A stretch of DNA of 46,660 bases, taken from sequence record NC_049829.1; one strand, written 5' to 3'. The notes under the pieces were generated by a model. That model did no database searches. It saw nothing but the letters and a program-made list of their open reading frames with translations, and was not told where the DNA came from. Source of the stretch: Escherichia phage aalborv. A program made the translations under genes and the position numbers. Shown in pieces: positions 1,256 through 43,513 of the stretch (the first letter of the stretch is position 1; the number at the start of each line of letters is the position of its first letter).

Positions 1256-1670
1256 TCATCATGTATTCTACAGCGATCATGAATTGCTTATATCCGTATG
1301 TAACGGCGGCGAATCCGCCAAGCTCACGAACGCGGCTCAAAAACGCTCTTTGCTCCTTGCTGACTGGTGAAGCCTTTCCCTTTCCTGATTTGTTTACGCG
1401 CTTCATCTCAATTGCCGCAAACGGATAGCGGCCTTTTAATCCAATCAGGATGATGAAATCACTTACTCCCTTAACAAGTCCGGCTTGCTGGTCCATCATT
1501 GCTGTAGCGATCCCCTTGTCGCCCTCGTTTTTCGTATGCCATGCCAGCAATTCAGGGTAGGCATAAGTCAACCATTGAAACGCCCCGATCTGGTGCGATT
1601 CCTCTTTTAGCGTATCTGTCGGATCTCTTTCGTAAAACTCCAGATAATCGCCTTTATCAGTCATTGCCAT
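1251..1670 (-). CDS. VRR-NUC domain nuclease (PD-(D/E)XK-like)
   Basis: 139 aa; D...E-x-K arrangement (SDFIILIG...AAIEMKR) reminiscent of VRR-NUC family; stop TAG inside promoter motif 1236..1255. Confidence 0.5.
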   Translation of the reverse strand: MAMTDKGDYLEFYERDPTDTLKEESHQIGAFQWLTYAYPELLAWHTKNEGDKGIATAMMDQQAGLVKGVSDFIILIGLKGRYPFAAIEMKRVNKSGKGKASPVSKEQRAFLSRVRELGGFAAVTYGYKQFMIAVEYMMK

Positions 1671-3702
1671 AATTAAATTCCTTCTTGTACAAATTATCTT
1701 CGCCCTTGCTAGTCTTGCGATGAGTCACACGCGATGGCGGCATGATGTGATTCACATATTGCATGATTTTACGCGCATTGCGATAGCTCGCCACCATACC
1801 AGCAATGCGGCGATCTGGTATGTGTTTAAGAGCAACGCTTCGCCATTTTGCGCGGCAAATTTGGCTCTCAGATTCAGGGAAAAATATCTCTCTCGCCTTG
1901 AAAGTATCTATGCCATCGGAAAGCTCATAATTAAATATTATCCCTTTCTGGTTTTTCGTCATGTCAACCGCGAAAGATTGCACCTGGAACCAGTCGTTTT
2001 TTGTGTAGTGCTTTCCGCTTAACTTCTCGTTGGGGTCAATCAATGACATGTCACAATGTCTGCATACCCTGGCCGCAATATCATTTTTCGTTCCACAACC
2101 GCGCTGAATAATCTTTTTAGTGCGCGGGTCAATCTGATCATCACATGTCCTGAATTTAAAGAACCATTCGCATCTGTTGCCGTTTTCGTCTACGTGCATA
2201 CAACGACGAGCATAATAGCTATTAAGAGTTCCGCAAATAGGGCAAGGCTTCGGATCTTTACCATTTCTGAATCGCTTCTGATGCTGCGCCTGTTCCAGTA
2301 TCGGATCAAAATAAAGCTCCCCTAGCTCGTCCATCGTTCCTGAAAAATCCATGACTAGATGATCATCCTTCTGGAATCCTTGCTCCTTATGCCACTTCTT
2401 AAGTAGTCGCATTCCGCGACCTAAAAGCTGAATCAGCAACGTAAGAGATCCAATCTTACGCAGAATAACAGACGTATCCCAAAACGGCACGTTAACGCCA
2501 GTAGTTAGCGCCTGCACCTGGAAGATGTATTTAACCTTTCCCTCGTATGCTTCTTTCAACCACTCCTTGCGCTGGTTATCGCCAGTCTTACCAGTAATGA
2601 TCCTGTAAGTAGTTCCAGGTGGCAACGCTGCCGCTGCCTCTTTGCAATGCCTTTCTCCTGCACATGTCACAAGTACGCCATTGCGGTTTTTACAGATCTC
2701 GTGAACTTTCGCCATGATGCGCTTTGTCATGGTCGCTTCTTCATGAATTTTTTGTTCCATCCTGCGAAGCGTTTTAGCGTCAAAGTCTGCAACTCCATCC
2801 TCACTTGATGCCTCAAACTCTGAAAGGTCATACCCGAGATCGCCAACGTCGCCAAAATTAGTCGGAACAACAGATCCGAACTTGATCAGGTAGTTGGTGT
2901 CAATATTAGTAACCTGCTCACGCCAGAATCCTTTTTGCTTTTTATCTTCTACCAGTATTGGCACTACACCGCGAAACTCTGATCCAGTCATGCCAAATAT
3001 GCGTAGTTCATGACCATATGTTTTCCGGCAACGGCGCATCATTTCCATAATAATGACAGTGTATTGTGTGCGTCCTGTTCCCTCCATTGGCAAGCCATCA
3101 TCACCAATCAGGAACTCTGTATTTCTGTTCCTGCTTCCCTTTGTTATGTTATAATATGGATTTGGTACTTTTTCGCCTTTCTCCGTCGTCATTTGTAAAA
3201 ATGATTCGTCTTTCTCTATTGCGTCGGCAAGGTCTTCCCAATCCACCTGGTGACACTCGTCAATCCCGATAACGTGCGGAACATAGTCGCCAAGCGCTTT
3301 AAACAGTCCATTAACTACAGTTCCCTCAGAACCAACAACGATCGGAAAGTATGCGCTTTTTGTCTTCAGTCCTGCACAATAGATGGAGTTCGGCACACCA
3401 AGATTTGTTATCTCTTCAGAATCCTGATCCACAATCTCAGCCTGGCGAGCAAGGACCATCATTTTCAAGCCCATTTTCCGGCACTGGTGAGCAACCATTG
3501 CAAACATCAATGTTTTGCCAGCCGATACAGACGCTTTAACAAAGAATGGATGCTCATAATTTTTCATACGCTTTGCGATCTCAGCGTATGCAACGCACTG
3601 GTAAGGGTAAGGCACAATCTCGCCAACAGTGAATCGCTCCTGAATGGATTTAATTACCGCTTCACCAAGTGCTGATATTTGCTTTTCAATGTTTGGAATC
3701 AT
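1657..3702 (-). CDS. SF2 ATP-dependent DNA helicase with C-terminal Cys-rich (zinc-ribbon-like) region
   Basis: Walker A (SAGKT), DExH-like box (GIDECHQ), motif VI-like QLLGRGMR; track ORF begins with TTG at 3768 inside the promoter motif, so start moved to ATG 3702 (MIPNIEK) with AAAGG SD; ATG 3726 is an alternative. Confidence 0.75.
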   Translation of the reverse strand: MIPNIEKQISALGEAVIKSIQERFTVGEIVPYPYQCVAYAEIAKRMKNYEHPFFVKASVSAGKTLMFAMVAHQCRKMGLKMMVLARQAEIVDQDSEEITNLGVPNSIYCAGLKTKSAYFPIVVGSEGTVVNGLFKALGDYVPHVIGIDECHQVDWEDLADAIEKDESFLQMTTEKGEKVPNPYYNITKGSRNRNTEFLIGDDGLPMEGTGRTQYTVIIMEMMRRCRKTYGHELRIFGMTGSEFRGVVPILVEDKKQKGFWREQVTNIDTNYLIKFGSVVPTNFGDVGDLGYDLSEFEASSEDGVADFDAKTLRRMEQKIHEEATMTKRIMAKVHEICKNRNGVLVTCAGERHCKEAAAALPPGTTYRIITGKTGDNQRKEWLKEAYEGKVKYIFQVQALTTGVNVPFWDTSVILRKIGSLTLLIQLLGRGMRLLKKWHKEQGFQKDDHLVMDFSGTMDELGELYFDPILEQAQHQKRFRNGKDPKPCPICGTLNSYYARRCMHVDENGNRCEWFFKFRTCDDQIDPRTKKIIQRGCGTKNDIAARVCRHCDMSLIDPNEKLSGKHYTKNDWFQVQSFAVDMTKNQKGIIFNYELSDGIDTFKAREIFFPESESQICRAKWRSVALKHIPDRRIAGMVASYRNARKIMQYVNHIMPPSRVTHRKTSKGEDNLYKKEFNYGND

Positions 3703-3712
3703 TCTAAAACCT

Positions 3713-3740
3713 TTGAGTAATGCCATTTGGCGTGTATAAT
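3713..3740 (+). promoter_or_regulatory. sigma70-like promoter (TTGAGT-16-TATAAT) for HTH-primase operon, divergent and overlapping the helicase promoter
   Basis: -35 at 3713..3718, -10 at 3735..3740; the -10 lies in a palindromic TGTATAATACA shared with the leftward promoter. Confidence 0.45.
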
Positions 3741-3780
3741 ACACAATCATTAAATCATCGTTTAACAAAAAATGCTATTG
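3730..3780 (-). promoter_or_regulatory. motif-type promoter (variant AATAGCATTTTTTGTTAAA) for helicase operon
   Basis: Motif 3761..3780; -10 TATTAT about 3735..3741. Confidence 0.5.
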
Positions 3781-3791
3781 GAGAATGAATA

Positions 3792-4265
3792 ATGAAAGAA
3801 CAGCGAATCGCAGTATCAACTGGCAAGATTGACAAGCGCACAATTAATGGCAATAACGGAACCAGACGAGGCAAGGATAAGAAGAAACGCAAACGCCCTA
3901 CAGGATATTATGTACTAAAAGATGAAGTGCGCGCTGGGCTAAAAGCACGCCTTGACATCCTTATTGAGTATTACGGAAGTGTATCAGCAATGGCAAAACG
4001 TCTTAACGTTAGCCAGCAAACTGTAAATCAGTGGCGTGTTCGCGGTATGATTTCAGCCGCTGGCGCTCAAAAGGTGCATAACGATTACAAAAAGTATGGC
4101 TGTCAAGGCTATCGCGCTTCATTCTGCCGTCCAGATCTGCGATTTGATTCCAATGGAAAACCGCTCACAAAGAGATGTGATAAGCGTGAAATGTTGCGAG
4201 TGGTAAGAATGTCAGATTATGAACCTGGCGGATTCCTGTATAAACCTGAAAGCACTAATTGCTAA
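3792..4265 (+). CDS. helix-turn-helix DNA-binding protein (Cro/YdaS-like HTH), basic N-terminus
   Basis: 157 aa; HTH-like segment SVSAMAKRLNVSQQTVNQWRVRG; GGAGAA SD; followed by intrinsic terminator 4273..4310. Confidence 0.55.
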   Translation: MKEQRIAVSTGKIDKRTINGNNGTRRGKDKKKRKRPTGYYVLKDEVRAGLKARLDILIEYYGSVSAMAKRLNVSQQTVNQWRVRGMISAAGAQKVHNDYKKYGCQGYRASFCRPDLRFDSNGKPLTKRCDKREMLRVVRMSDYEPGGFLYKPESTNC

Positions 4266-4272
4266 AAACAAT

Positions 4273-4310
4273 GCCTGGCATGATGTTATCATCTGTCAGG
4301 CTTTTTTGTT
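4273..4310 (+). terminator. intrinsic terminator after HTH gene
   Basis: Imperfect GC/AT stem GCCTGGCATGAT..ATCATCTGTCAGGC followed by TTTTTTGTTT. Confidence 0.5.
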
Positions 4311-4320
4311 TGAGGTGCAT

Positions 4321-5253
4321 ATGAACAACGAAAACTTTATGGTTTATCAAAAGGAAGATGTTCTCCCATATATGCAGGGATTATGGCGTGAGGCGCTACA
4401 AAGTATTTGCGGTCTTCCAAATGAAGTTTTTAACGGCAAGCATCAATCTTGCCCCCACTGCGGCGGAAAGGATCGCTTTAGATGGACGGATAAACTTGGA
4501 GATAAAAAAGGCGATGGCGGTGCGATCTGCAACGTGTGCGGAAACGATACTGGAATCGGTTGGATCATGAAGCTAACCGGAGAACCTTACAGCGAAGTGA
4601 TCAATATTTTGGGCCGCTTTCTTGGAAAAGTTCCGCAGGACTATAGAATCAAGGCAAATAAGCGAGTATCTCGTGATTCTGGTTATTCGTTTGGGAAACA
4701 GGCAAGCCATGAATGCTGCGAGCGCGTTATGTCAAAAACACTAAAATTTGATCGCACGCCGTTAAGCACATATGAAGGAATATGCCCGCCTGAAGATGGT
4801 CATTATGATTGCGGCGTAAAAGATGGTCGATACATTCACGCGTTACCATGTTACCTTGTGCATTCAGATGATATTGATGATGAAATGTGCAATGTGCTTT
4901 TCATTGATGAAGAAGGTAAACAGTCTTTTCTAGCAAAGGACTACACGCGAGGGTCGATTGTTAGAACCGGAAGTACAGATAAGACTATCTATCTTTGCGT
5001 TGACTGGATTGATGCGCAACATATTCATCTTGCAACTGGTCAGGAGGTTTGGGCCTGTTTTGATGCAACTAACATTGAGATTGTGGCTTACAGGTATAAA
5101 GGCAACAGAAGAATGCGAGTTGTCTGTAAGAGCACAGATCGTGACGCGATCATTGCTGCCGAGGAAAGAGGACTTGAAATTATGATGCCGATTAATGATA
5201 ATTACAGACAAGGGATAGAGAGGAAGGTTTTCAAACCTGAATCTATTCTCTAA
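4321..5253 (+). CDS. DNA primase-like protein with N-terminal C4 zinc ribbon
   Basis: CPHCGG...CNVCGN (C-x2-C-x21-C-x2-C) resembles primase zinc-binding domain; start trimmed from track 4219 to ATG 4321 (GAGGTG SD) because 4266..4310 is a terminator hairpin. Confidence 0.55.
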   Translation: MNNENFMVYQKEDVLPYMQGLWREALQSICGLPNEVFNGKHQSCPHCGGKDRFRWTDKLGDKKGDGGAICNVCGNDTGIGWIMKLTGEPYSEVINILGRFLGKVPQDYRIKANKRVSRDSGYSFGKQASHECCERVMSKTLKFDRTPLSTYEGICPPEDGHYDCGVKDGRYIHALPCYLVHSDDIDDEMCNVLFIDEEGKQSFLAKDYTRGSIVRTGSTDKTIYLCVDWIDAQHIHLATGQEVWACFDATNIEIVAYRYKGNRRMRVVCKSTDRDAIIAAEERGLEIMMPINDNYRQGIERKVFKPESIL

Positions 5254-7929: not shown

Positions 7930-8991
7930 TTAAATAAGATATTGCTTAAACTGGCGTCGCACCCAATCAGGAGTATCAAGGCAAACCTCCGGCTCGCCGT
8001 TTGAATACGAAGGCCAAACGTCATGTTGCTGGCACATGGCAAACTGGTTAATTACGCTCATGTACTGAATGCGCCCGATCTTCAATTGCTCGCTGTTCAT
8101 GCGGAAAGCTAACGGCAAGTAAGGCTCTTTCTTCTCTTGCGCTAACAGGCGCACAACTATAGGTCGCTTTTCTTCTGGATACGCTTTCCTGAATAAATCA
8201 CATTGCAACGCCATTTTCAGATAATAGCCGTGATTGTAAGCCAGGCGCATAAACTCAACCGGATTAGCGATCATTGTTGTTTTGTAGTCAGTAATCACAA
8301 TCGCCTCTGGATAAATAATATCGCGGCAAATCGGTTGACCTTTTTCATCGTAACCATCAATCAGCGTTGCGGTGACGTTCTTTGTTACGTCAACGTGATC
8401 GCATCGCACTTTGACTTTTACGCCGTTGATTTCACCGAACAACGATAATTCACGTTGTGCTGTCTTGCTATTCATACATGCGTTATGTTCCGGTATTGAT
8501 TCCAGAACCTGGCGCATTGCAACGCACGAATCGTAATCTTTAGCTTCGATTAACTGAACCCCATCGGCCCTGGCCTGACTTTCTGCGATCATGTCGATTA
8601 ACCACATGACGTTAAGGTCTTCTCCGCAGTCGACCATCATTTTTATAAGTTCGGGGTAAGTCTTTCCGGTTGTACCTTTCAGGCCAAATGATTTCAGCTT
8701 TGCAGCAAGCGCCGTTTGGCTGGTTATCAGATCCTTAAAGTCTTCTGGCGCTGGCGCACGGCGATAGTTTTTTTCGAAAAGCTCCTTGCTTTCAAAGTTG
8801 GTATGCGACTGCGTACCAAAAACTAGCGCCTTGCTCTTGTCGTCACGCGGCTTGAACTTCCACGCTGCCGGGCATGTGCTGTAAATCTCCGCCAGGCTTG
8901 AACCGCTAACATAATCAGCCGTCCACGCTTCTGGATCGTGATAAAGCTCGTTGCTCATTTCTTCGCTGGTGTACGCCATAAACTTATTCAT
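7930..8991 (-). CDS. PD-(D/E)XK exonuclease (RecE/YqaJ-like) partner of ERF
   Basis: 353 aa; D-x-K-containing segment IVITDYKT; synteny with ERF and SSB; GAGGG SD; sigma70-like promoter 9015..9048. Confidence 0.55.
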   Translation of the reverse strand: MNKFMAYTSEEMSNELYHDPEAWTADYVSGSSLAEIYSTCPAAWKFKPRDDKSKALVFGTQSHTNFESKELFEKNYRRAPAPEDFKDLITSQTALAAKLKSFGLKGTTGKTYPELIKMMVDCGEDLNVMWLIDMIAESQARADGVQLIEAKDYDSCVAMRQVLESIPEHNACMNSKTAQRELSLFGEINGVKVKVRCDHVDVTKNVTATLIDGYDEKGQPICRDIIYPEAIVITDYKTTMIANPVEFMRLAYNHGYYLKMALQCDLFRKAYPEEKRPIVVRLLAQEKKEPYLPLAFRMNSEQLKIGRIQYMSVINQFAMCQQHDVWPSYSNGEPEVCLDTPDWVRRQFKQYLI

Positions 8992-9014
8992 GATTTGCCC
9001 TCGTTTGTTGGTAT

Positions 9015-9048
9015 GCCTGCATTGTAGCTATTTGATGCGTTTAGTCAA
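9015..9048 (-). promoter_or_regulatory. sigma70-like promoter TTGACT-16-TACAAT for exonuclease-ERF-SSB operon
   Basis: -35 at 9043..9048, -10 at 9021..9026 (minus strand); 24 nt upstream of exonuclease start. Confidence 0.5.
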
Positions 9049-9101
9049 TAGCTATTTTGTTTTTTATGTTCTAACAACGTTCTCACCAACCTGGATAACA
9101 A

Positions 9102-9117
9102 AACTTACATGTAAGTT
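9102..9117. promoter_or_regulatory. 16-bp perfect palindrome AACTTACATGTAAGTT (candidate operator) within control region A
   Basis: Exact palindrome; embedded in longer imperfect dyad GGATAACA...TATCC. Confidence 0.45.
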
Positions 9118-9288
9118 ATTGATAAATATCCGAGTTGTCTTTTTGTTCTCTTGTTCCTCCATTTGCGCCGGATATAGATATATACACACATAACCACTGA
9201 CACATGCATAATCACAGAAAAATCACCAGACACGCAAAATCACACAAAACATAGATAACAATAAAGAACAGATATAAATATATATACC

Positions 9289-9304
9289 ACTAACTTATTG
9301 ATTT
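9289..9304. repeat. 16-mer ACTAACTTATTGATTT shared by control regions A and B (copy A)
   Basis: Identical 16-mer at 37186..37201; flanking ATATAAATA / TATATATA blocks also similar. Confidence 0.8.
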
Positions 9305-9415
9305 ATATGTATTTATATATATTTATCTGTATATATTGCTCTCTATTGTTGTTTACTTTTTGCTCTAAATTTACGCCTCCGCAGATTTGAGAACGCATGA
9401 GAACAAAAAGAACAG

Positions 9416-9465
9416 AATAGCACTTTTTGCTAAACGCCTGCTGTAAGATCGTGTATAGTTGCAAC
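9416..9465 (+). promoter_or_regulatory. motif-type promoter (variant AATAGCACTTTTTGCTAAA) for Cor-like gene
   Basis: Motif 9416..9435; -10 TATAGT 9454..9459 after 21-bp spacer. Confidence 0.5.
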
Positions 9466-9490
9466 CAACAACAACGAAGGAGATACCAAG

Positions 9491-9718
9491 ATGAAAAAAT
9501 TAATCGCCGTTTTGATTGCAGCCGTAACCCTGACTGGTTGCGCAAATATGCCTAAACGTGAATGCACGGCTATTTATGAAAATAGCGGTATGCAGTATTC
9601 AGTTGCTATTTTTGGAGTAAAACGAGTTGGCGACCGCACTCTTGTTAAGGCTGGCTATCCGTTTAATTTTCAGTGGGTAAGTATTGATAACTTTAAAAAC
9701 GCTGATTGCAGTCTGTAA
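9491..9718 (+). CDS. small outer-membrane lipoprotein, Cor-like superinfection exclusion candidate
   Basis: 75 aa; signal peptide plus lipobox LTGC; only plus-strand gene between the exonuclease and tail modules; promoter 9416..9465; terminator 9725..9750. Confidence 0.5.
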   Translation: MKKLIAVLIAAVTLTGCANMPKRECTAIYENSGMQYSVAIFGVKRVGDRTLVKAGYPFNFQWVSIDNFKNADCSL

Positions 9719-9724
9719 ATAAAA

Positions 9725-9750
9725 ATAAAGGGGCGAAAGCCCCTTTTTTC
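9725..9750. terminator. bidirectional intrinsic terminator between convergent Cor-like and tail-fiber-like genes
   Basis: Stem GGGGC-gaaa-GCCCC flanked by A-tract and T-tract. Confidence 0.65.
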
Positions 9751-9751
9751 A

Positions 9752-10390
9752 TTAGTCGTAAATATCAGTCTTGATGGCAATTATTGAGTTTCCGTTATTT
9801 GTTATAGAACCTGTTCCTGGAGTTGTCCTTGCCGCACCTATCCTTGTGCTTGAACCATCATACCTGCATGATGTATATATGTCAGACGCACCCATACCTA
9901 TAACAGCACCAAGCCTTGATGGGCAAACGGCATAAGAACCAGATAATGTCTGATCTATATTAGTTCCCCCTGAAGAACCATGAGCACCAATTGTCACAAG
10001 GTCTGTTAGCACCCTGCTTTCATTAGTTAAAACCAACTTGCCGCTTGCATCCCATATAGCCATTCCATATTTTGGCAGAGTTTGAGGGAATATGGCAAAT
10101 ATATAAACAGTCATTGTAAATGATTGCCCGTATGGATTGCCTCCGTTTACATAAATGTTGCCACCATTCCTGTAAGCTATTAATGCAGTTGGCTGCTGTG
10201 TGTTTGTTGTTTTTATAAATGCCATACATTGATAAGATTGATTTAATGGTATATTTGCGCTTGCGCTATGATAGGCAGAATTGCCAGAAGATGAATAAGT
10301 GTACTTGCCATATAAGCAAAATGGCGTTGATTTTGGTGTGATAAATGGATTCCCATTTGATAAAGATAACATTGCTCCATATTCAGCCAT
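9752..10390 (-). CDS. putative tail fiber / host-range protein (paralog A)
   Basis: Start set at MAEYG (ATG 10390) directly after stop of upstream paralog with GAGGG SD; Gly/Ser/Thr/Asn/Tyr-rich; downstream of J. Confidence 0.4.
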   Translation of the reverse strand: MAEYGAMLSLSNGNPFITPKSTPFCLYGKYTYSSSGNSAYHSASANIPLNQSYQCMAFIKTTNTQQPTALIAYRNGGNIYVNGGNPYGQSFTMTVYIFAIFPQTLPKYGMAIWDASGKLVLTNESRVLTDLVTIGAHGSSGGTNIDQTLSGSYAVCPSRLGAVIGMGASDIYTSCRYDGSSTRIGAARTTPGTGSITNNGNSIIAIKTDIYD

Positions 10391-29685: not shown

Positions 29686-30206
29686 TATATCTTCTCCAGA
29701 ATGTCAATTACCGCCTCTTTGACTTCCTCCGCCGTTACAGCGTCAACGCTTGCGCTTGTGTTATTCTCAATGGTTACGGTTGCTGGCTTTTCAATGCCGA
29801 TCTCTTTACCAATGAATCCGGCGTTAACAATATTGTTTGCGGCAAGCTGGAATTTTTGCTCGTAAACAACGCCGTCGATAAAGTCCATAACATCGCTGAA
29901 TCCTGGCTCGCGTCGCCATTTTTCAAGCACGGAAGCAGAAAGGCCAGAGAATAAGCGGAACCCATTTAAGGTGAACACGCGCGGCTTGTGAATCTTGCTT
30001 TCGTATACATCACCTTGAAAGGATGCAGTTTCCGCAGCCTGTATATGGTTTTCCTCTGCCCACGTAAAGTAACGTACAGCCAGATCAAATACCTGTTCCG
30101 GCGTGTACTTGTGCGCCTTTGTCATTTTTGCAATATCGCCATATTGCTTATTATATAGTTTTTTAAAATTGCAAGCCTTTACGGCTGGCTCAACGTTTTT
30201 AGCCAT
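29685..30206 (-). CDS. terminase small subunit (by synteny)
   Basis: 173 aa ORF directly upstream of and overlapping large terminase; preceded by terminator and TATAAT. Confidence 0.55.
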   Translation of the reverse strand: MAKNVEPAVKACNFKKLYNKQYGDIAKMTKAHKYTPEQVFDLAVRYFTWAEENHIQAAETASFQGDVYESKIHKPRVFTLNGFRLFSGLSASVLEKWRREPGFSDVMDFIDGVVYEQKFQLAANNIVNAGFIGKEIGIEKPATVTIENNTSASVDAVTAEEVKEAVIDILEKI

Positions 30207-30254
30207 AATGCGCCCTCCTTATAACAAAGACTCATTATAGACAAATTGCAGGCA

Positions 30255-36118: not shown

Positions 36119-36379
36119 AATATCTGTTGTGACTTGCTGGTGCATTACGCTCTTTCCGCTGTTGTGCGTGCTATTCGTTGCGCCTTTGCAATTGGTGTAA
36201 TAGATCGCGCGACCGTTATCATAGAATCTGTATGCTGTGCATCCATCAACAGTGAACAGGCGACCGACTTTGAAATCTGACTCCACGCCTACGACAACCG
36301 TTGATTCCGATGCCTTTCGCATCCGGTCAGGGTAGCGATTGCAATCAAAACTCCAATTAATGCCTTGTTCATTATTCAT
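36113..36379 (-). CDS. hypothetical protein (88 aa)
   Basis: ORF track; stop TAG inside promoter motif 36098..36117. Confidence 0.5.
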   Translation of the reverse strand: MNNEQGINWSFDCNRYPDRMRKASESTVVVGVESDFKVGRLFTVDGCTAYRFYDNGRAIYYTNCKGATNSTHNSGKSVMHQQVTTDIK

Positions 36380-36842
36380 CCTCCATCTTTACCATCTCGT
36401 TAAGCATTTCATTCATTCGCTCAAGTGCGATTGCCGCACCTTCCAGGCGCTCGCCTTCAAGATCGCTGATTCGCGGCTGTGTTTTAAGCAGTTGAGCAAT
36501 AAACTTTGCTCGCCACTTGATTTCAAGTTTCGCTATATCATCTCCAGTCAGAACACGCGGTTTGCTTTTGGATTCTGTGAGCGCAAACACGAAACCATCA
36601 CCTTCATCAGTCACCTTGCGCTTAATGCTGATCACGCCTTTTTGCTTCACTTCAGGTACGCGGTTGACAACCTGGCGCATGTACGATGCCGTAATTGCTT
36701 CGCCGTTCTCCACATTAGCGCACAAAAAAAGTGCTGGCATGAATACATTATTACGCTCACCACTACCAATTGCCGCGCCCAAGTCGCGAAGCATATCGCA
36801 GAACTCACTACGCGACATATAACTAATATTTTCTTCATTCAT
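36372..36842 (-). CDS. hypothetical protein (156 aa), first gene of leftward operon
   Basis: Start set to ATG 36842 (MNEENISYM, AAGGAG SD); sigma70-like TTGACA-17-AATAAT promoter 36873..36907. Confidence 0.5.
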   Translation of the reverse strand: MNEENISYMSRSEFCDMLRDLGAAIGSGERNNVFMPALFLCANVENGEAITASYMRQVVNRVPEVKQKGVISIKRKVTDEGDGFVFALTESKSKPRVLTGDDIAKLEIKWRAKFIAQLLKTQPRISDLEGERLEGAAIALERMNEMLNEMVKMEDE

Positions 36843-36872
36843 GGCGTCTGCTCCTTTTGTTGCGTTTAAACT

Positions 36873-36907
36873 GGATGCATTATTTCCTTGCCTTTCCTGC
36901 ATGTCAA
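36873..36907 (-). promoter_or_regulatory. sigma70-like promoter TTGACA-17-AATAAT for leftward operon
   Basis: -35 at 36902..36907, -10 at 36879..36884 (minus strand); 30-nt leader with AAGGAG SD. Confidence 0.5.
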
Positions 36908-37185
36908 TATATTTTGTGTTTTAATAACAATTTTTGGCATGTGGCGCGTTTAAAGATAACAAAATGCACTACTTAAGTTATTGGTTTAACAGATAAAAGC
37001 GACCCTGTTGACCTGGTTGACGGAGTATTGCCGCTACCCCATATATATACATACAAAAATCACCACACATCACCATTGATTAAAAAATATACAATCACAC
37101 ATACATATCACCACAAACAATACCACTCCACCACATACCCATAGAACAAGCTCAACAGTAAATAACAAATATAAATACATATATA

Positions 37186-37201
37186 ACTAACTTATTGATT
37201 T
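37186..37201. repeat. 16-mer ACTAACTTATTGATTT (copy B)
   Basis: Identical to 9289..9304. Confidence 0.8.
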
Positions 37202-37442
37202 TATGGGTATATATATAAATTTTATTTTGTTCTTTTTGTTGATGAACGCCGTTTCTGTTATCTAAAAGTGCGGAGGCTTATTTGAGATAACATGGGGAAC
37301 AGAAATAACAGATGAGCGCGCCAGGATTGCCGGAAAGGACGCAAGAGGACCGCGTTTCTCTATCCCCTCCACACAAAAAGTTAATCATCTGATTAAAATT
37401 GATCAAACTCAATATCTCACAATCCAGGTGATCGCGAATGAG

Positions 37443-37482
37443 TTATTCCTGTTATTCCTGATTAATGGAATAGATGGAATAA
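37443..37482. promoter_or_regulatory. dyad of repeated half-sites TTATTCC(x2)...GGAATA(x2), candidate operator upstream of first rightward promoter
   Basis: TTATTCC at 37443 and 37452; GGAATA at 37467 and 37476; 14 bp upstream of motif 37496. Confidence 0.45.
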
Positions 37483-40861: not shown

Positions 40862-41248
40862 ATGAAAGTTATCTGCAATAAAACCAACGTTTTGATGAAC
40901 GGTCGCTATAAAACCGTATACGAAAAAATCGCTGGTAGCGATGATGTGATCGAGTTGGAACAATTCCAGGTAAAGAGCATTACAAAGGGTAGTAAGTGGC
41001 AAAACGCTGTTGAGTCTGACTATCGTCACATCAAGACAAAAACAATTAAATGCACATTTGTAGATCACAAGATCCCGTGCAAAAAGCATTTCAAAGAAGG
41101 AAAGCGTTACCAGATTGAGCAAGGACGCGCGCTTGGCGCTGTTGCTGGTTATGTGTTTGATGAGTCTGGCGACCGCTGGACGCTATACCGCGAAGAAGTT
41201 GGATTTTCCGCTGGTGGCTGTCATTTGTTTGAGGCTATGTATAAGTGA
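40862..41248 (+). CDS. hypothetical early protein (128 aa)
   Basis: ORF track; AAGGAGAAA SD after promoter module 40786..40836. Confidence 0.5.
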   Translation: MKVICNKTNVLMNGRYKTVYEKIAGSDDVIELEQFQVKSITKGSKWQNAVESDYRHIKTKTIKCTFVDHKIPCKKHFKEGKRYQIEQGRALGAVAGYVFDESGDRWTLYREEVGFSAGGCHLFEAMYK

Positions 41249-41534: not shown

Positions 41535-43118
41535 ATGAATTTTTCGTTTGAAACCAATAAACTAACACCAAAACAAATTATCGAATTAGCTGATGCACAA
41601 GGATTGTCTCCGGTGCGCGTGTCCATTCAGGCAAACGGATACCGTCAATCGTCCAGCTTTTGGGGTGAGGTTAATGATGTTAATAACGGAAACGATCGCT
41701 ACCCTATAATTTCTCTTGGCAATGATGTTGATGTTGTTGGTAAGTTGGCGCGCAACATTGCTCGATCAGTTCAGTTCCCTGAATCATCGGCATATATGCA
41801 TTTTATCGGCTGCGTGTCTGCTGCAATGCTTGGACGCTTCACGGTTGAGTATCACGGAACGGATCAACCAACTGCTCTTTACGTTGTTACAAGTCAGCCT
41901 CCTTCAACTGGTAAATCTGCCGTTAACAGCCTTGCACTTGCTCCTATGGTTGCTGAGGTAGAAAGAATTAATGATCAGCGAAAGAAGGAACGAAAAAAGA
42001 TTCAGGCAAAGTTGGCAGGTCTTGCAAAGGAAATGAAAAGCGAGCGTTCCGGCGCTGATATGGAATCGCTATACCAGGAGAAAGAAGATCTGGAAGAAAA
42101 ACTGGAAAAGATGTGTGACATTGTTTTCCCTGTCTCCGACACCACGCCGGAAGGACTTGCAAGAATCAACAACCGCCAGGGAAACTTTGCTGTAATTTCA
42201 GACGAGGCAACGAGTATTAACAGCCTTTTAGGTCTGACATATGCCAATAGCGAACGTAAAACCAACAGCGAACTTGTGCTAAAAGCATGGGATCATGGTC
42301 ATGTTTCTATAGCTCGTGCAAACGCTGACAACAATATGAGTTTTAAAGCTCTTGGCTGCATGGCGGTAATTGCCCAGGATGAAACAATCAATGCCATCAT
42401 GGACGCAGGATCACGCGGTATCGGTGTAAGTGAGCGTTATTTGCTTGTGCGTGAGGAATCATTTTTAGGTCGTCGAAAGTTTGTTGATGATAACGGTGAT
42501 TCGACTTATGAGCCTGTTGATGGAGAACTGAAAAGCCAATATTTTAAGCTGATCCATAACATAATGAGCGAATCAAACATCCAGCTTAAGATCAGCAAAT
42601 CAGCAATGCGAGTGCTTAACATGGCTCGTCAGGAGATGGAACCGCACCTTGCCGATGGCGGAAAGTATTCTCATACAATGCTGCGCGGCGCGCTTGGCAA
42701 AATGGATAAGCAGGTGATCAGAATTGCTTCGGTTTTGCACACTATCCGCAATTGGTTTAATCCTGGCGGATACCCTCAAAAGTCGAAAGAGATTGAGGTT
42801 GAAACCGTTCAGGAAGCACTGCTGATGTTTAGCGAGTTGAGCAAAACATACATTAGCGCCGCCAACGCTTCTGGCTATGCTGGTGATGATGCTGAAATGG
42901 GTAAACTAATCGAGATTATCACTCGACACGGTAAGGCTAACAAGGGAATCTTGAATGTGCGAGCCATATATGAGGCTGCGCGAAAAGTTAAGCCTTTTGT
43001 TGGTCAGGCTGGCGTAATGAAGCGCATGGAAACGCAACTGCTGCCGATGCTTGAAGAAAGAAATTATATTTGTGTGATTAATGGCGTTGTTTTTGTAAAT
43101 CCAACATTGCTGGGGTAA
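41535..43118 (+). CDS. P-loop NTPase domain protein (527 aa), function unknown
   Basis: Walker A-like TSQPPSTGKSAV; AAGGAG SD; largest protein of the early block. Confidence 0.6.
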   Translation: MNFSFETNKLTPKQIIELADAQGLSPVRVSIQANGYRQSSSFWGEVNDVNNGNDRYPIISLGNDVDVVGKLARNIARSVQFPESSAYMHFIGCVSAAMLGRFTVEYHGTDQPTALYVVTSQPPSTGKSAVNSLALAPMVAEVERINDQRKKERKKIQAKLAGLAKEMKSERSGADMESLYQEKEDLEEKLEKMCDIVFPVSDTTPEGLARINNRQGNFAVISDEATSINSLLGLTYANSERKTNSELVLKAWDHGHVSIARANADNNMSFKALGCMAVIAQDETINAIMDAGSRGIGVSERYLLVREESFLGRRKFVDDNGDSTYEPVDGELKSQYFKLIHNIMSESNIQLKISKSAMRVLNMARQEMEPHLADGGKYSHTMLRGALGKMDKQVIRIASVLHTIRNWFNPGGYPQKSKEIEVETVQEALLMFSELSKTYISAANASGYAGDDAEMGKLIEIITRHGKANKGILNVRAIYEAARKVKPFVGQAGVMKRMETQLLPMLEERNYICVINGVVFVNPTLLG

Positions 43119-43120
43119 TT

Positions 43121-43513
43121 ATGTTTCTTCTGGATCTGTATCGCTGGTGTGAGTCATTCGAATGGTTTACACGTCAACATATAGCGAAATTTATATTTCA
43201 GCATAGAGAATGTGAGCGGCTCGCAAGGGCCGCAGGATTTACGCCGAGGATGTTTGCAACTGCCGTTTCAAAAGAATTTTGCTCAAGAATGATGACCGCT
43301 GGTTATCTTGATGGAGTTGGTGGAAAGTTCTGGTGTAAGAAAGGATCAGCAAATCGCCCTTTCTCGTTTGAACTTTACAGCCTGGAAGGTATGCAAAACG
43401 AATGGGTAAGAGATGTTTTACGGATCGGAGAAATGAGCGATGAAGAATTGTTTACGTCAAATGCTAATAGACAAAATATTGAAGTTCTGCGCCGTAAGTT
43501 CAATCTCACATGA
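43121..43513 (+). CDS. hypothetical early protein (130 aa)
   Basis: ORF track; GGGG SD. Confidence 0.5.
   Translation: MFLLDLYRWCESFEWFTRQHIAKFIFQHRECERLARAAGFTPRMFATAVSKEFCSRMMTAGYLDGVGGKFWCKKGSANRPFSFELYSLEGMQNEWVRDVLRIGEMSDEELFTSNANRQNIEVLRRKFNLT

What the first reader, a model, noticed from the sequence alone, without database searches (positions are those of the whole stretch)
8992..9490. Control region A: long AT-rich divergent intergenic region with palindrome and iteron-like repeats
About 500 bp without ORFs between the leftward recombination operon and the rightward Cor-like gene. It contains a 16-bp perfect palindrome (9102..9117), repeated AATCAC(C/A) units (9200..9250), AT-rich TATATA blocks and a 16-mer shared with region B. 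This is a candidate replication origin and/or operator hub.
Basis: seen in the sequence. Interest (0 to 1): 0.65.

Follow-up and report, generated by a model that had tools for sequence, protein, structure and literature searches.

The report
Duplicated iteron-flanked AT-rich control element
The 500-bp gap between the recombination operon and cor in this T1-like phage is one of two ancient, family-wide copies of a non-coding element (early promoter, repeated protein-binding motifs, the genome's most easily melted DNA), which makes it the best candidate so far for the still-unmapped replication origin of T1-like phages.

Summary
The window is a Drexlerviridae (T1-like, Hanrivervirus) genome. 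The observation mostly holds. 8992-9490 is non-coding. The 16-bp palindrome, three AATCAC units, TATATA blocks and a 16-mer shared with "region B" all exist. But the palindrome is chance-level and not conserved, and AATCAC is only weakly conserved.

The shared 16-mer is the tip of a ~380-415-bp paralogy between A (9044-9421) and B (36903-37317), in the same orientation. Both copies occur in every lineage checked: T1, Tempevirinae genera and Pantoea phage AAS23. Each copy has:
- a leftward consensus sigma-70 promoter at its left edge;
- arrays of short motifs in both orientations around an AT-rich centre;
- an IHF-consensus site in many lineages.

The two centres are the least stable duplex DNA in the genome. 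The motifs are lineage-specific and largely confined to A and B. T1 has TGTTACA 6 times, all in A+B. AAS23 has an exact 12-mer 5 times, all in A+B.

No conserved ORF, RNA structure, Rfam hit or DnaA box was found. The right 75 bp of A is the known 21-nt "DR" promoter module for cor.

Best reading (unproven): a composite promoter region whose core is an iteron-flanked unwinding element, one of two replication-initiation or control sites, analogous to SPP1 oriL/oriR or P4 ori/crr. A purely transcriptional hub remains a serious rival.

The parts
9021..9048 (-). Leftward sigma-70-type promoter for the exonuclease VIII/Erf/SSB operon (-35 TTGACT at 9048-9043, 16-nt spacer, -10 TACAAT at 9026-9021)
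   Evidence: Found by the promoter scan (10/12 matches). The -35 is nearly invariant across 44 relatives. T1 has TTGACT-16-TATAAT at the same place. It corresponds to the predicted promoter P51 of phage TLS (PMC11447400 Table S1).
9047..9066 (+). T-rich tract (A-rich on the promoter strand, at about -40 to -60, so UP-element-like) that also reads as a degenerate DR-like box AATAGCTATTTTGTTTTTTA
   Evidence: The sequence is shown. TTG 9058-9060 and the flanking T-run are conserved in both the A and B consensus. A counterpart, ATAACAATTTTTG, lies in B at 36924.
9067..9100 (.). Left outer motif cluster: TGTTCT (9067), GTTCTC (9079) and GATAACA (9094-9100)
   Evidence: Motifs located. GATAACAAAAT is a block shared by the A and B consensus.
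9102..9117 (.). Perfect 16-bp palindrome AACTTACATGTAAGTT; lineage-specific and probably incidental
   Evidence: Verified. Not conserved outside close relatives. About 0.8 such palindromes are expected by chance per genome (my estimate), and two are observed.
9112..9124 (-). IHF-consensus match 1 (TATCAATAACTTA on the minus strand), inside the conserved block GTAAGTTnaTGATTTTAA
   Evidence: One of only 9 WATCAANNNNTTR matches in the window. The block is conserved in both the A and B consensus. Most relatives carry ATCAT at position 6 of the consensus, which is one base off.
9138..9157 (+). Outer-left inverted-repeat arm TCTTTTTGTTCTCTTGTTCC (two TGTTC units)
   Evidence: Repeat I6: 9138-9153 is 94% complementary to 9396-9411. 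The arm position is conserved, with TTGTTCAC in other Tempevirinae and GTAACAC..TGTAACC in T1.
9160..9175 (+). Conserved GC-rich box CATTTGCGCCGGATAT, followed by a TATATA block
   Evidence: Conserved in the A and B consensus. It occupies the position of the exact 12-mer iteron TTTGCGGTAGAT/ATCTACCGCAAA of Pantoea phage AAS23.
9185..9250 (+). Strand-asymmetric C/A-rich segment holding AATCAC at 9210, 9221 and 9238
   Evidence: Sequence and motif positions. AAAATCA at 9218-9225 and 9236-9243 is conserved. The same stretch is annotated as 'repeat_region' in phage haarsle. The triple repeat is not family-wide.
9246..9270 (+). Three direct RAACA units spaced about 8-11 bp start to start (AAAACA, GATAACA, AGAACA) abutting the AT-rich centre
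   Evidence: Strongly conserved block in A and B of all Tempevirinae. It is replaced by TTACAC/ATACAA/TTACAC at about 10-bp phasing in T1-type phages. AGAACA occurs 7 times in A+B against 0.46 expected, and GATAACA 5 times against 0.21.
9271..9335 (.). AT-rich centre and candidate DNA-unwinding element. It includes the 16-mer shared with B (9289-9304), IHF-consensus match 2 (9291-9303, minus strand), inverted arms 9268-9284 / 9314-9330, and the 10-bp tandem ATTTATATGT x3.6 (9301-9336)
   Evidence: It contains the least stable 50-bp stretch (9272-9321; -46.7 kcal/mol against a genome mean of -67.9 +/- 4.4) and overlaps the least stable 100-bp stretch (9236-9335) of the whole window. Repeats.
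9336..9362 (-). Inner-right arm (TTGCTCTCTATTGTTGTTTACTTTTTG), with TGTT units facing the centre
   Evidence: Repeat I1: 9245-9270 against 9337-9362, 77% complementary. The corresponding block TTTTGTTCTTTTTGTT is conserved in A and B of other genera.
9368..9390 (+). Second GC-rich box AATTTACGCCTCCGCAGATTTGA
   Evidence: AAATTT and the flanking bases are highly conserved among A copies. The B counterpart is AAAAGTGCGGAGGCTTATTTGAG.
9389..9415 (+). Outer-right arm GAGAACGCATGAGAACAAAAAGAACAG (GAGAAC x2, GAACA x2)
   Evidence: Repeats I2, I6 and I11. GAACAAAAAGAACA is among the best conserved stretches. The B counterpart is GGGGAACAGAAATAACAGA.
9415..9490 (+). cor promoter module: 21-nt DR box GAATAGCACTTTTTGCTAAAC (9415-9435), -10-like GTATAGT (9453-9459), Shine-Dalgarno AAGGAG (9477-9482)
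   Evidence: One of about 18 DR copies in the window, each about 74 nt upstream of a start codon. It matches the published TLS consensus aaATAGCACnnnTTGnTAAAA (PMC11447400). The -10 is conserved.
36879..37317 (+). Region B: the paralogous copy of the element. It carries a leftward promoter (TTGACA-17-AATAAT, 36907->36879), the same conserved blocks, and the second least stable duplex (37169-37218)
   Evidence: Paralogy. Promoter. Duplex stability. The cumulative GC-skew minimum of the window falls at 37191.

Best explanation
Region A is a composite element.

Its two edges are ordinary promoter modules. On the left is a consensus sigma-70 promoter firing leftward into the exonuclease VIII-Erf-SSB operon. 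On the right is a family-typical DR-type promoter firing rightward into cor.

The ~330-bp core between them (about 9067-9415) is a conserved cis-acting DNA element, not a gene. It consists of a ~65-bp AT-rich unwinding centre with an IHF-type bend site. Short repeated motifs abut this centre in both orientations and are bracketed by an outer inverted repeat.

I infer that these repeats are iterons for a phage-encoded DNA-binding protein. Candidates are the C-terminal winged-helix part of the MCM-like DUF3987 helicase (41535-43118) and the Cro-like HTH protein (3792-4265).

I further infer the following mechanism. Protein binding, an IHF bend and the negative supercoiling left behind the two outward-firing promoters open the AT-rich centre. 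The phage helicase and Zn-ribbon primase then load, and host polymerase III replicates.

The genome holds a second, paralogous copy (region B, 36879-37317). So the phage has either two origins or an origin plus an auxiliary site, as in SPP1 oriL/oriR or P4 ori/crr.

Shown here: non-coding status, paralogy, family-wide conservation, lineage-specific repeats confined to A and B, minimal duplex stability, and the promoters as sequence matches. Inferred only: protein binding, unwinding and replication initiation.
For: 1. Paralogy. A and B align over about 380-415 bp in the same orientation (score 175 against 34 +/- 5; nhmmer E = 5e-14). No third copy exists.

2. Antiquity. An HMM built from 44 A copies finds B-type copies in Tempevirinae genera and in T1 (E = 2e-10). 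The A and B consensus sequences share block after block. In the window, PeterMerian and T1 the two copies lie in the same orientation.

3. Selective constraint. The A core keeps 62-74% identity to other Tempevirinae genera, while four-fold sites of the adjacent recE gene are at 37-53%. The shuffle baseline is 54 +/- 2.4%.

4. Lineage-specific repeats largely confined to A and B:
- T1 has TGTTACA 6 times, 4 in A and 2 in B, and none elsewhere in 48.8 kb.
- Pantoea phage AAS23 has the exact 12-mer ATCTACCGCAAA 5 times in 50 kb, 1 upstream of recE and 4 in B.
- Another lineage has TGGGACAA 9 times within 460 bp of B and nowhere else in a 17.5-kb locus.
- The window has AGAACA 7 times against 0.46 expected, and GATAACA 5 times against 0.21.

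5. Arrangement. Direct, roughly phased units lie on one side of the AT-rich centre and inverted units on the other, with an outer 16-nt inverted repeat that is 94% complementary.

6. Duplex stability. A and B are the two least stable segments of the window at 50, 100 and 200 bp. The same holds at 100 bp in AAS23.

7. IHF. Three of the nine IHF-consensus matches in the window lie in A and B, at homologous positions and on the same strand.

8. No rival origin. [quoted passage not shown] The SU57 paper found no oriC-like site.

10. Precedents for two cis elements sharing repeats: SPP1 oriL/oriR (PMC6316719) and P4 ori/crr, as annotated in X51522.
Against: - There is no experimental evidence of initiation at A or B in any T1-like phage.
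- The duplicated unit includes a consensus sigma-70 promoter. TLS authors predicted only three such intergenic promoters, and two of them correspond by position to the A and B sites. So the core could simply be an upstream regulatory region of these early promoters.
- In AAS23 the A copy also carries four DR-like GCACTTTT boxes. That points to transcription-factor binding.
- The window's own motifs are short (5-7 nt) and degenerate, unlike classical 17-22-bp iterons.
- The GC-skew minimum at B coincides with the switch in gene orientation, so it is uninformative on its own. No skew feature is seen at A.
- IHF-consensus sites are missing in TLS-type and T1-type copies.
- The dyad symmetry is strong only in the window lineage: z = -5.5 there, but -0.6 in a close relative.
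- A test for concerted evolution of A and B was clear only for T1.
Confidence: 0.42

Rival explanations
1. Purely transcriptional control hub. The core would be an upstream regulatory region of two of the few host-recognised early promoters. It would be bound by IHF and by a phage regulator, for example the Cro-like HTH protein or the factor that recognises DR boxes. That binding would boost and later shut off or retime early transcription. It would have no role in replication.
For: - The paralogous unit begins with a consensus sigma-70 promoter in both A and B.
- TLS authors predicted only three such intergenic promoters, and two correspond by position to A and B.
- The T-rich tract next to the -35 looks like an UP element.
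- Degenerate DR-like boxes occur in A and B. Four GCACTTTT boxes occur in the AAS23 A copy.
- The element travels with the recE promoter even where the gene order is rearranged, as in AAS23.
- IHF sites upstream of phage early promoters are well known, for example at Mu Pe and lambda pL (from my own knowledge).
Against: - 330 bp of conserved upstream sequence with motifs up to about 370 bp from the -35 is far more than known UP or activator architectures need.
- Extreme meltability centred about 250 bp upstream of the promoter has no obvious transcriptional purpose.
- Repeats lie in both orientations around an AT-rich centre, which is origin-like.
- The window has 16 promoter-like sites with at least 10/12 matches, so these two promoters are not unique by sequence alone.
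Confidence: 0.33
2. The region encodes a non-coding RNA. One candidate is a C/A-rich small RNA transcribed rightward from about 9190. Another is its G/U-rich antisense, present as two paralogous copies.
For: - The C/A-rich segment (9185-9270) is strongly strand-asymmetric, and this is conserved in A and B.
- A weak promoter-like match points rightward at 9183-9212.
- The window's A core folds better than shuffles, z about -4.
Against: - No Rfam match in the core at E <= 10 apart from one chance-level hit.
- RNAalifold gives no consensus structure on 62 A and B cores.
- The fold z-score is equal on both strands, absent in B (z = +0.5), and absent in a 90%-identical relative.
- No terminator lies inside the element.
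- Conservation is in short blocks that read as inverted DNA motifs.
Confidence: 0.06
3. The region encodes a short protein. Examples are the 41-aa ORF 9064-9189 (minus strand) annotated in phage EC147 and the 46-aa ORF annotated in the T1 spacer.
For: Small CDSs are annotated in this spacer in EC147, in T1 (30110-30250) and in AAS23.
Against: - ORFs differ in position, frame, strand and start codon among 13 representative relatives, and most start with GTG or TTG.
- Indels of lengths that are not multiples of three are frequent.
- Conservation is patchy and motif-like.
Confidence: 0.03
4. Another DNA-level role: a nucleoid-protein (H-NS/IHF) binding sink, a recombination hotspot serving the adjacent RecE/Erf system, or a packaging or injection signal.
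For: - The DNA is extremely AT-rich and carries IHF-type sites.
- The element lies next to the recombination genes in every lineage seen, including the rearranged AAS23.
Against: - Lineage-specific exact repeats argue for a specific phage-encoded binder rather than generic nucleoid proteins.
- The TLS authors placed the pac site by restriction mapping and by resemblance to the P22 pac sequence, not at an AT-rich repeat element.
- No data link the element to recombination frequency.
Confidence: 0.08

Closest known systems
Bacillus phage SPP1 oriL / oriR
   Same: - It has two distant cis elements of similar organisation in one lytic siphovirus genome, each with repeats plus an AT-rich unwinding element.
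- One of them lies in an intergenic region among late genes.
- The phage also encodes a 5'-3' exonuclease, an annealase, an SSB and a Holliday-junction resolvase. These are proposed to restart replication after the fork meets the second, protein-bound copy (PMC6316719).
- The window phage encodes exonuclease VIII, an Erf-type recombinase and an SSB directly beside copy A, and a resolvase gene nearby by synteny with T1.
   Different: - SPP1 uses a dedicated origin-binding protein (gp38), a loader and a DnaB-type helicase. No homologues of these were identified here, and the candidate helicase is MCM-like.
- SPP1 oriL lies inside gene 38, whereas both copies here are intergenic and carry promoters.
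- The repeats here are shorter.
- Origin function here is untested.
Satellite phage P4 ori + crr (alpha protein type I iterons)
   Same: - It has two separated cis elements carrying the same octamer, TGTTCACC, in both orientations.
- From my own knowledge, both are bound by one multifunctional primase-helicase with a C-terminal DNA-binding domain.
- Several Tempevirinae A copies carry TTGTTCAC / GTGAACAC at the outer arms, which resembles the P4 octamer.
   Different: - BLASTP finds no similarity between P4 alpha and the window's DUF3987 helicase.
- The window's own motifs are TGTTCTC and TGTTCC, not TGTTCAC.
- The resemblance in motif sequence may be coincidence.
SaPI / SCCmec replication origins with self-loading Rep or Cch helicases
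   Same: - From my own knowledge, SaPI origins are two sets of short iterons flanking an AT-rich region that the Rep helicase melts, with origin specificity in the Rep C-terminal domain.
   Different: - SaPI origins lie immediately next to the rep gene. Here the helicase gene is about 4 kb from B and about 13 kb from A across the window ends.
- Binding is untested.
Drexlerviridae 21-nt direct repeat (DR) promoter-associated element
   Same: The right end of the region (9415-9435) is a typical copy. [quoted passage not shown]
   Different: It explains only the last ~75 bp of the region. The function of DR boxes is itself unknown and is listed as an open question in PMC11447400.
Enterobacterial oriC / DnaA-dependent origins
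   Same: Both have an AT-rich unwinding region and an IHF-type site.
   Different: There are no DnaA boxes in A or B, and none matching TTATNCACA in the whole window. There is no GATC cluster: neither core has a GATC site, although the window has 253.

Membership tests
Iteron-type phage/plasmid replication origin (lambda, SPP1, P4, SaPI class) | AT-rich DNA-unwinding element | tested here: met
   A (9272-9321) and B (37169-37218) are the two least stable 50-bp duplex segments of the window, about 4.5-4.8 SD from the mean. They also rank first and second at 100 and 200 bp. The same holds at 100 bp in AAS23.
Iteron-type phage/plasmid replication origin (lambda, SPP1, P4, SaPI class) | Multiple copies of a specific repeat next to the unwinding element, rare elsewhere in the genome | tested here: met
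   - T1: TGTTACA 6 of 6 copies in A+B.
- AAS23: 12-mer 5 of 5 copies in A+B.
- Another lineage: TGGGACAA 9 copies, only in B within a 17.5-kb locus.
- Window: AGAACA 7 against 0.46 expected, GATAACA 5 against 0.21. The window's own repeats are short and degenerate.
Iteron-type phage/plasmid replication origin (lambda, SPP1, P4, SaPI class) | Repeats bound by a cognate initiator protein | not testable with these tools
   Only candidates can be named: the MCM-like DUF3987 helicase with a winged-helix C-terminus and the Cro-like HTH protein.
Iteron-type phage/plasmid replication origin (lambda, SPP1, P4, SaPI class) | Replication initiates there, or the element confers replication in cis | not testable with these tools
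   No experimental mapping of a T1-like origin was found in the searchable literature. TLS and SU57 authors report no origin identified.
Iteron-type phage/plasmid replication origin (lambda, SPP1, P4, SaPI class) | Lies within or directly beside the initiator gene (lambda O, SPP1 gene 38, SaPI rep) | tested here: not met
   A lies between recE and cor. B lies between small early genes. The candidate helicase genes are at least 4 kb away. This feature is not universal in the class: SPP1 oriR and P4 crr also lack it.
DnaA-dependent oriC-like origin | DnaA boxes (TTATNCACA) and a GATC cluster | tested here: not met
   No strict DnaA boxes in the window. No GATC in either core, although the window has 253 GATC sites.
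Sigma-70 promoter (left edge) | -35 and -10 hexamers with a 16-18-nt spacer, conserved and correctly placed before the gene | tested here: met
   TTGACT-16-TACAAT at 9048->9021. It is conserved. There are homologous promoters in B and T1. It was predicted independently in TLS as P51. The transcription start itself cannot be tested here.
Drexlerviridae DR element (PMC11447400) | 21-nt aaATAGCACnnnTTGnTAAAA, intergenic, in the direction of transcription, about 76 nt upstream of a start codon | tested here: met
   GAATAGCACTTTTTGCTAAAC at 9415-9435, 74 nt before the cor ATG. It is one of about 18 copies in the window.
IHF binding site | WATCAANNNNTTR core with an A/T-rich flank | tested here: inconclusive
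   The window has perfect matches at 9112, 9291 and 37188, which is 3 of 9 in the genome. The match is kept in many Tempevirinae A and B copies. It is lost or one base off in TLS-type and T1-type copies. Binding is not testable here.
Structured non-coding RNA | Rfam match, or a conserved structure with covariation | tested here: not met
   No meaningful Rfam hit. The RNAalifold consensus is empty. The folding z-score is not conserved and is the same on both strands.
Small protein-coding gene | ORF conserved in frame and position across relatives | tested here: not met
   ORF positions, frames and start codons are inconsistent across 13 lineages.

The most novel reading that the evidence does not exclude
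A and B form a two-site replication system for a bacterial-virus MCM-like helicase. One copy, probably B at the skew minimum between the diverging early gene arms, would be the initiating origin, where helicase is loaded over iterons that lie in both orientations. Copy A sits directly upstream of the exonuclease-annealase-SSB operon. It would stay protein-bound and act as a programmed fork barrier or auxiliary site that triggers the switch from theta replication to recombination-dependent concatemer synthesis, as proposed for SPP1 oriR. This would give classical phage T1 its long-missing origin. It would also be a tractable bacterial model of MCM-type origin melting.
Probability: 0.15. Interest if true: 0.8.

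Novelty: new member of a known kind. Interest (0 to 1): 0.55.

Why it matters
T1 is one of the founding model phages. Yet the searches I could run found no mapped replication origin for it or its relatives, and recent genome papers say none was identified. The 2024 TLS paper found no iterons in its genome and lists the intergenic DR repeats among open questions.

This analysis gives two precise, conserved, testable sites per genome. It gives the lineage-specific motifs to mutate. It also names candidate binding proteins, including a helicase whose predicted fold is MCM-like.

If confirmed, it would explain how these common laboratory-contaminant phages, which are also therapy candidates, start DNA synthesis. 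If the element turns out to be purely transcriptional, it would still define the control region of the immediate-early promoters.

Tried and rejected
- Rfam at E <= 10 on 8500-10000 gave only terminator-like chance hits outside the core.
- RNAalifold on 62 A and B cores gave no structure. The folding z-score looked impressive for the window (-4 to -5.5), but it is strand-symmetric, absent in B and absent in close relatives.
- The conserved small ORF idea was rejected.
- DnaA boxes and GATC clustering are absent.
- AA/TT 10-bp periodicity, a proxy for intrinsic curvature, showed no signal, so I make no curvature claim.
- The palindrome as a functional site was rejected for lack of conservation and chance-level expectation.
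- A third AT-rich spot at 45.0-45.25 kb is unrelated. It holds the holin upstream region and a terminator.
- P4 alpha shows no sequence similarity to the DUF3987 helicase.
- The proteins flanking the DUF3987 gene (40862-41248 and 43121-43513) are not similar to each other and match no known family.
- A matrix test for concerted evolution of A and B was noisy. It was clear only for T1.
- Cumulative GC skew is confounded by gene orientation.
- Exact-pattern scans of IMG/VR with the 16-mer and with an iteron pair returned mostly chance hits and were a waste.
- Literature searches for T1-like origin mapping or transcriptomes found nothing usable. The T1 (2004) and Rtp (2006) genome papers are not held.
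Full report
**Identity of the window.** The region matches Escherichia phage EC147 at 99% (Drexlerviridae, Tempevirinae, Hanrivervirus). It also matches 153 T1-like phage records at 68-94% identity. In the window it lies between an exonuclease VIII-like gene (7930-8991, minus strand) and a 75-aa lipoprotein annotated as Cor in relatives (9491-9718, plus strand). The Erf-type recombinase and SSB genes follow the exonuclease gene.

**Checking the observation.**
- The 499-bp stretch is non-coding in practice. ORFs of 30-120 aa occur in it, but they differ in position, frame, strand and start codon in 13 representative relatives. Alignments show frequent indels whose lengths are not multiples of three.
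- The 16-bp palindrome at 9102-9117 is real. I estimate that about 0.8 such palindromes are expected in a genome of this size and composition, and two are present. This one decays in close relatives and is absent in other genera.
- AATCAC occurs three times, at 9210, 9221 and 9238. Only one or two AAATCA units are conserved, and the triple repeat is confined to the window and T1-type phages.
- The TATATA blocks and a 10-bp tandem array (9301-9336) are present.
- The 16-mer shared with "region B" is ACTAACTTATTGATTT, at 9289 and 37186.

**The main finding: a duplicated element.** The 16-mer belongs to a much longer similarity.
- A (9044-9421) aligns with B (36903-37317) in the same orientation. 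The local score is 175 against 34 +/- 5 for dinucleotide shuffles, and nhmmer gives E = 5e-14. There is no third copy.
- I collected 44 copies of A from IMG/VR through the adjacent exonuclease gene. I collected B copies through the DUF3987 helicase gene about 4 kb to its right.
- An HMM of the A copies detects B copies in several Tempevirinae genera, in PeterMerian and in T1, where B spans the ends of the GenBank record.
- The consensus of the A copies and the consensus of the B copies share a series of blocks:
  - GATAACAAAAT;
  - GTAAGTTCATGATTTTAAACG.TGTTTT;
  - a TTGTTC/TTGTTA pair;
  - a GC-rich box (..TTT.CGC.GGAT);
  - ATATATATATACATACA;
  - three RAACA units;
  - the AT-rich centre with TTGATTT;
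  - TTTTGTT.TTTTTGTT;
  - G.AACA...GAAACA.
- The duplication therefore predates the split of Tunavirinae and Tempevirinae, and both copies have been kept.
- The A core retains 62-74% identity between Tempevirinae genera, against a shuffle baseline of 54 +/- 2.4%. Four-fold degenerate sites of the neighbouring recE gene are at 37-53%.

**Anatomy of A.**
- The left edge is a sigma-70 promoter pointing into the exonuclease operon (TTGACT-16-TACAAT, 9048->9021). Its -35 is almost invariant. B has the homologous TTGACA-17-AATAAT, and T1 has TTGACT-16-TATAAT.
- The TLS authors predicted only three intergenic sigma-70 promoters in that genome. P51 lies upstream of the exonuclease gene, and P01 lies at the start of the record, which is the B side.
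- The right edge (9415-9490) is a standard copy of the published 21-nt DR box with a -10-like GTATAGT and a Shine-Dalgarno sequence before cor.
- Between these edges, 9067-9415 contains short motifs enriched against the rest of the genome: AGAACA/TGTTCT (7 against 0.46 expected) and GATAACA/TTGTTAT (5 against 0.2-0.4).
- The motifs are arranged as follows:
  - an outer inverted repeat, 9138-9153 against 9396-9411, 94% complementary;
  - an inner inverted repeat, 9245-9270 against 9337-9362;
  - three direct units abutting the left side of the AT-rich centre.
- The centre (9271-9335) contains the least stable 50-bp stretch of duplex in the window and overlaps the least stable 100-bp stretch. 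B's centre is second at both scales.
- Three of the window's nine matches to the IHF core consensus WATCAANNNNTTR fall in A and B, at homologous positions and on the same strand: 9112, 9291 and 37188. The central one is the shared 16-mer. Many Tempevirinae copies keep it, but TLS-type and T1-type copies do not.
- There are no DnaA boxes and no GATC sites in either core.

**Lineage-specific repeats tie A and B together.**
- In T1 the enriched motif is TGTTACA. It occurs six times in 48.8 kb, four in A and two in B, and nowhere else. It occupies the alignment positions where Tempevirinae carry TGTTC/GAACA.
- In more distant genera the AT-rich centre of B is surrounded by longer exact repeats found nowhere else in the 17.5-kb loci:
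  - ATCTACCGCAAA, 4 copies;
  - AATCCTCCGTAA, 4 copies (5 for the 11-mer core);
  - TGGGACAA, 9 copies within 460 bp, in both orientations.
- I fetched the genome of one of these phages, Pantoea phage AAS23 (Sauletekiovirus). The exact 12-mer ATCTACCGCAAA occurs five times in 50 kb, four in B and one in the spacer upstream of the exonuclease gene. Those two places are also the two least stable 100-bp segments of that genome.
- In AAS23 the recombination module is inverted and cor is absent, yet the element still sits upstream of the exonuclease gene.
- Repeats that differ between lineages but are shared by the two copies within a genome indicate a trans-acting, phage-encoded binding protein that recognises both copies.

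**What it is not.**
- Rfam gives nothing meaningful in the core.
- RNAalifold finds no consensus structure over 62 A and B cores.
- The window's A core folds better than shuffles (z about -4). But it does so equally on both strands, B does not (z = +0.5), and a 90%-identical relative does not. This is lineage-specific DNA dyad symmetry, not an RNA.
- No ORF is conserved.

**Candidate proteins.**
- Pfam finds four relevant proteins:
  - an SF2 helicase (1657-3768);
  - a Cro/YdaS-like HTH protein (3792-4265);
  - a Zn-ribbon primase (4219-5253);
  - a DUF3987 ATPase (41535-43118).
- An AlphaFold model of the DUF3987 protein, built on 27 homologues, has pLDDT 88.4.
- From my own knowledge, Cch and SaPI Rep are self-loading initiator helicases, and SaPI origins are iteron sets flanking an AT-rich region. 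So a suitable initiator candidate exists, but nothing here shows that it binds A or B.

**Interpretation.** The core has the hallmarks of an iteron-type origin or auxiliary replication site:
- an unwinding element;
- flanking specific repeats in both orientations;
- a bend site;
- outward-firing promoters on both sides that would leave negative supercoils behind them;
- no competing origin candidate in the literature.

Two such elements per genome have precedents. SPP1 has oriL and oriR. There the second, protein-bound copy is proposed to stall the fork and trigger the exonuclease/annealase/SSB/resolvase-dependent switch to concatemer synthesis. P4 has ori and crr, which share TGTTCACC repeats.

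The rival reading has real support. Each copy starts with one of the few consensus early promoters. Degenerate DR-like boxes occur inside the elements. The element follows the recE promoter through rearrangements.

The cumulative GC-skew minimum falls exactly at B's centre (37191). But it coincides with the reversal of gene orientation, so it adds little.

I rate the origin or replication-site reading at about 0.42 and the purely transcriptional hub at about 0.33. The two are not mutually exclusive.

**Novelty.** I found no description of the A/B paralogy or of these repeats. The 2024 TLS paper states that no iterons were found in its genome and lists the intergenic DR repeats as an open question. 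If the element is an origin, it is a new member of a known kind, the iteron-plus-unwinding-element phage origin in a dual arrangement. Its possible partner would be an MCM-like helicase, which would be the more unusual aspect.

Noticed in passing
[not shown]
   Followed up: partly
window, about 18 sites (e.g. 234-, 1254-, 9417+, 36116-, 37497+, 38371+, 40787+, 43631+): In the DR promoter modules the conserved box ATAGCACTTTTTGTTAAAA puts its TTG 21-22 nt from the -10. That is about 5 bp too far upstream for a normal -35. The box therefore centres near -41, like a class II activator site. The spacer and -10 are often enclosed by GC-rich inverted repeats of variable sequence (mean best stem 5.44 against 4.80 +/- 0.22 in shuffles). 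Many copies share a leader CATCGAAACGA..GAGG before the ATG.
   Followed up: partly
window 37445-37480 (region B, right part); also in the T1 B copy: Two direct TTATTCC units are followed by two GGAATA units, forming a 2+2 inverted repeat. It lies immediately upstream of the first rightward DR promoter (37497). It is conserved in T1 (ATTCCAG x2 ... TGGAATA / TTGGAATA). It looks like an operator present in B but not in A.
   Followed up: no
window 37380-37410, and B copies of PeterMerian and T1: A second family of lineage-specific repeats lies in the right part of B: TTAATCA..TGATTAA in the window, TAATCA about 6 times in PeterMerian, and GTGTTAATC x3 plus CGTAATCG x2 in T1.
   Followed up: no
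window 36372-36902 (-): The DUF7174 gene probably starts at the second Met (ATG at 36842) rather than at 36902. The consensus promoter TTGACA-17-AATAAT occupies 36907->36879, and a good Shine-Dalgarno sequence precedes the second ATG.
   Followed up: partly
GenBank records MG0656xx ('Campylobacter phage A113, A13a, A127 ...'): About 18-20 records labelled as Campylobacter jejuni phages carry this T1-like region at 84-92% identity. They are evidently T1-like coliphage sequences, either mislabelled or contaminants.
   Followed up: no
L381 (Pantoea phage AAS23) 24581-25196: In this distant genus the exonuclease-recombinase-SSB module is inverted relative to the tail genes, and cor is missing. The A-type element still sits upstream of the exonuclease gene. 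It carries four GCACTTTT (DR-like) boxes, two on each strand and pointing outward.
   Followed up: partly
window 9727-9746: A bidirectional intrinsic terminator (AAAGGGGCGAAAGCCCCTTT flanked by T runs on both strands) separates cor from the convergent tail genes. The rightward transcript from region A therefore covers cor only.
   Followed up: no
phage records JakobBernoulli, slyngel, herni, grams, JLBYU09 (hits H41-H45): In these relatives the match to region B is split in two pieces spanning about 1.53 kb instead of 0.67 kb. About 860 bp with small annotated genes is inserted between the B core and its right-hand promoter part. The two parts of B are therefore separable modules.
   Followed up: no
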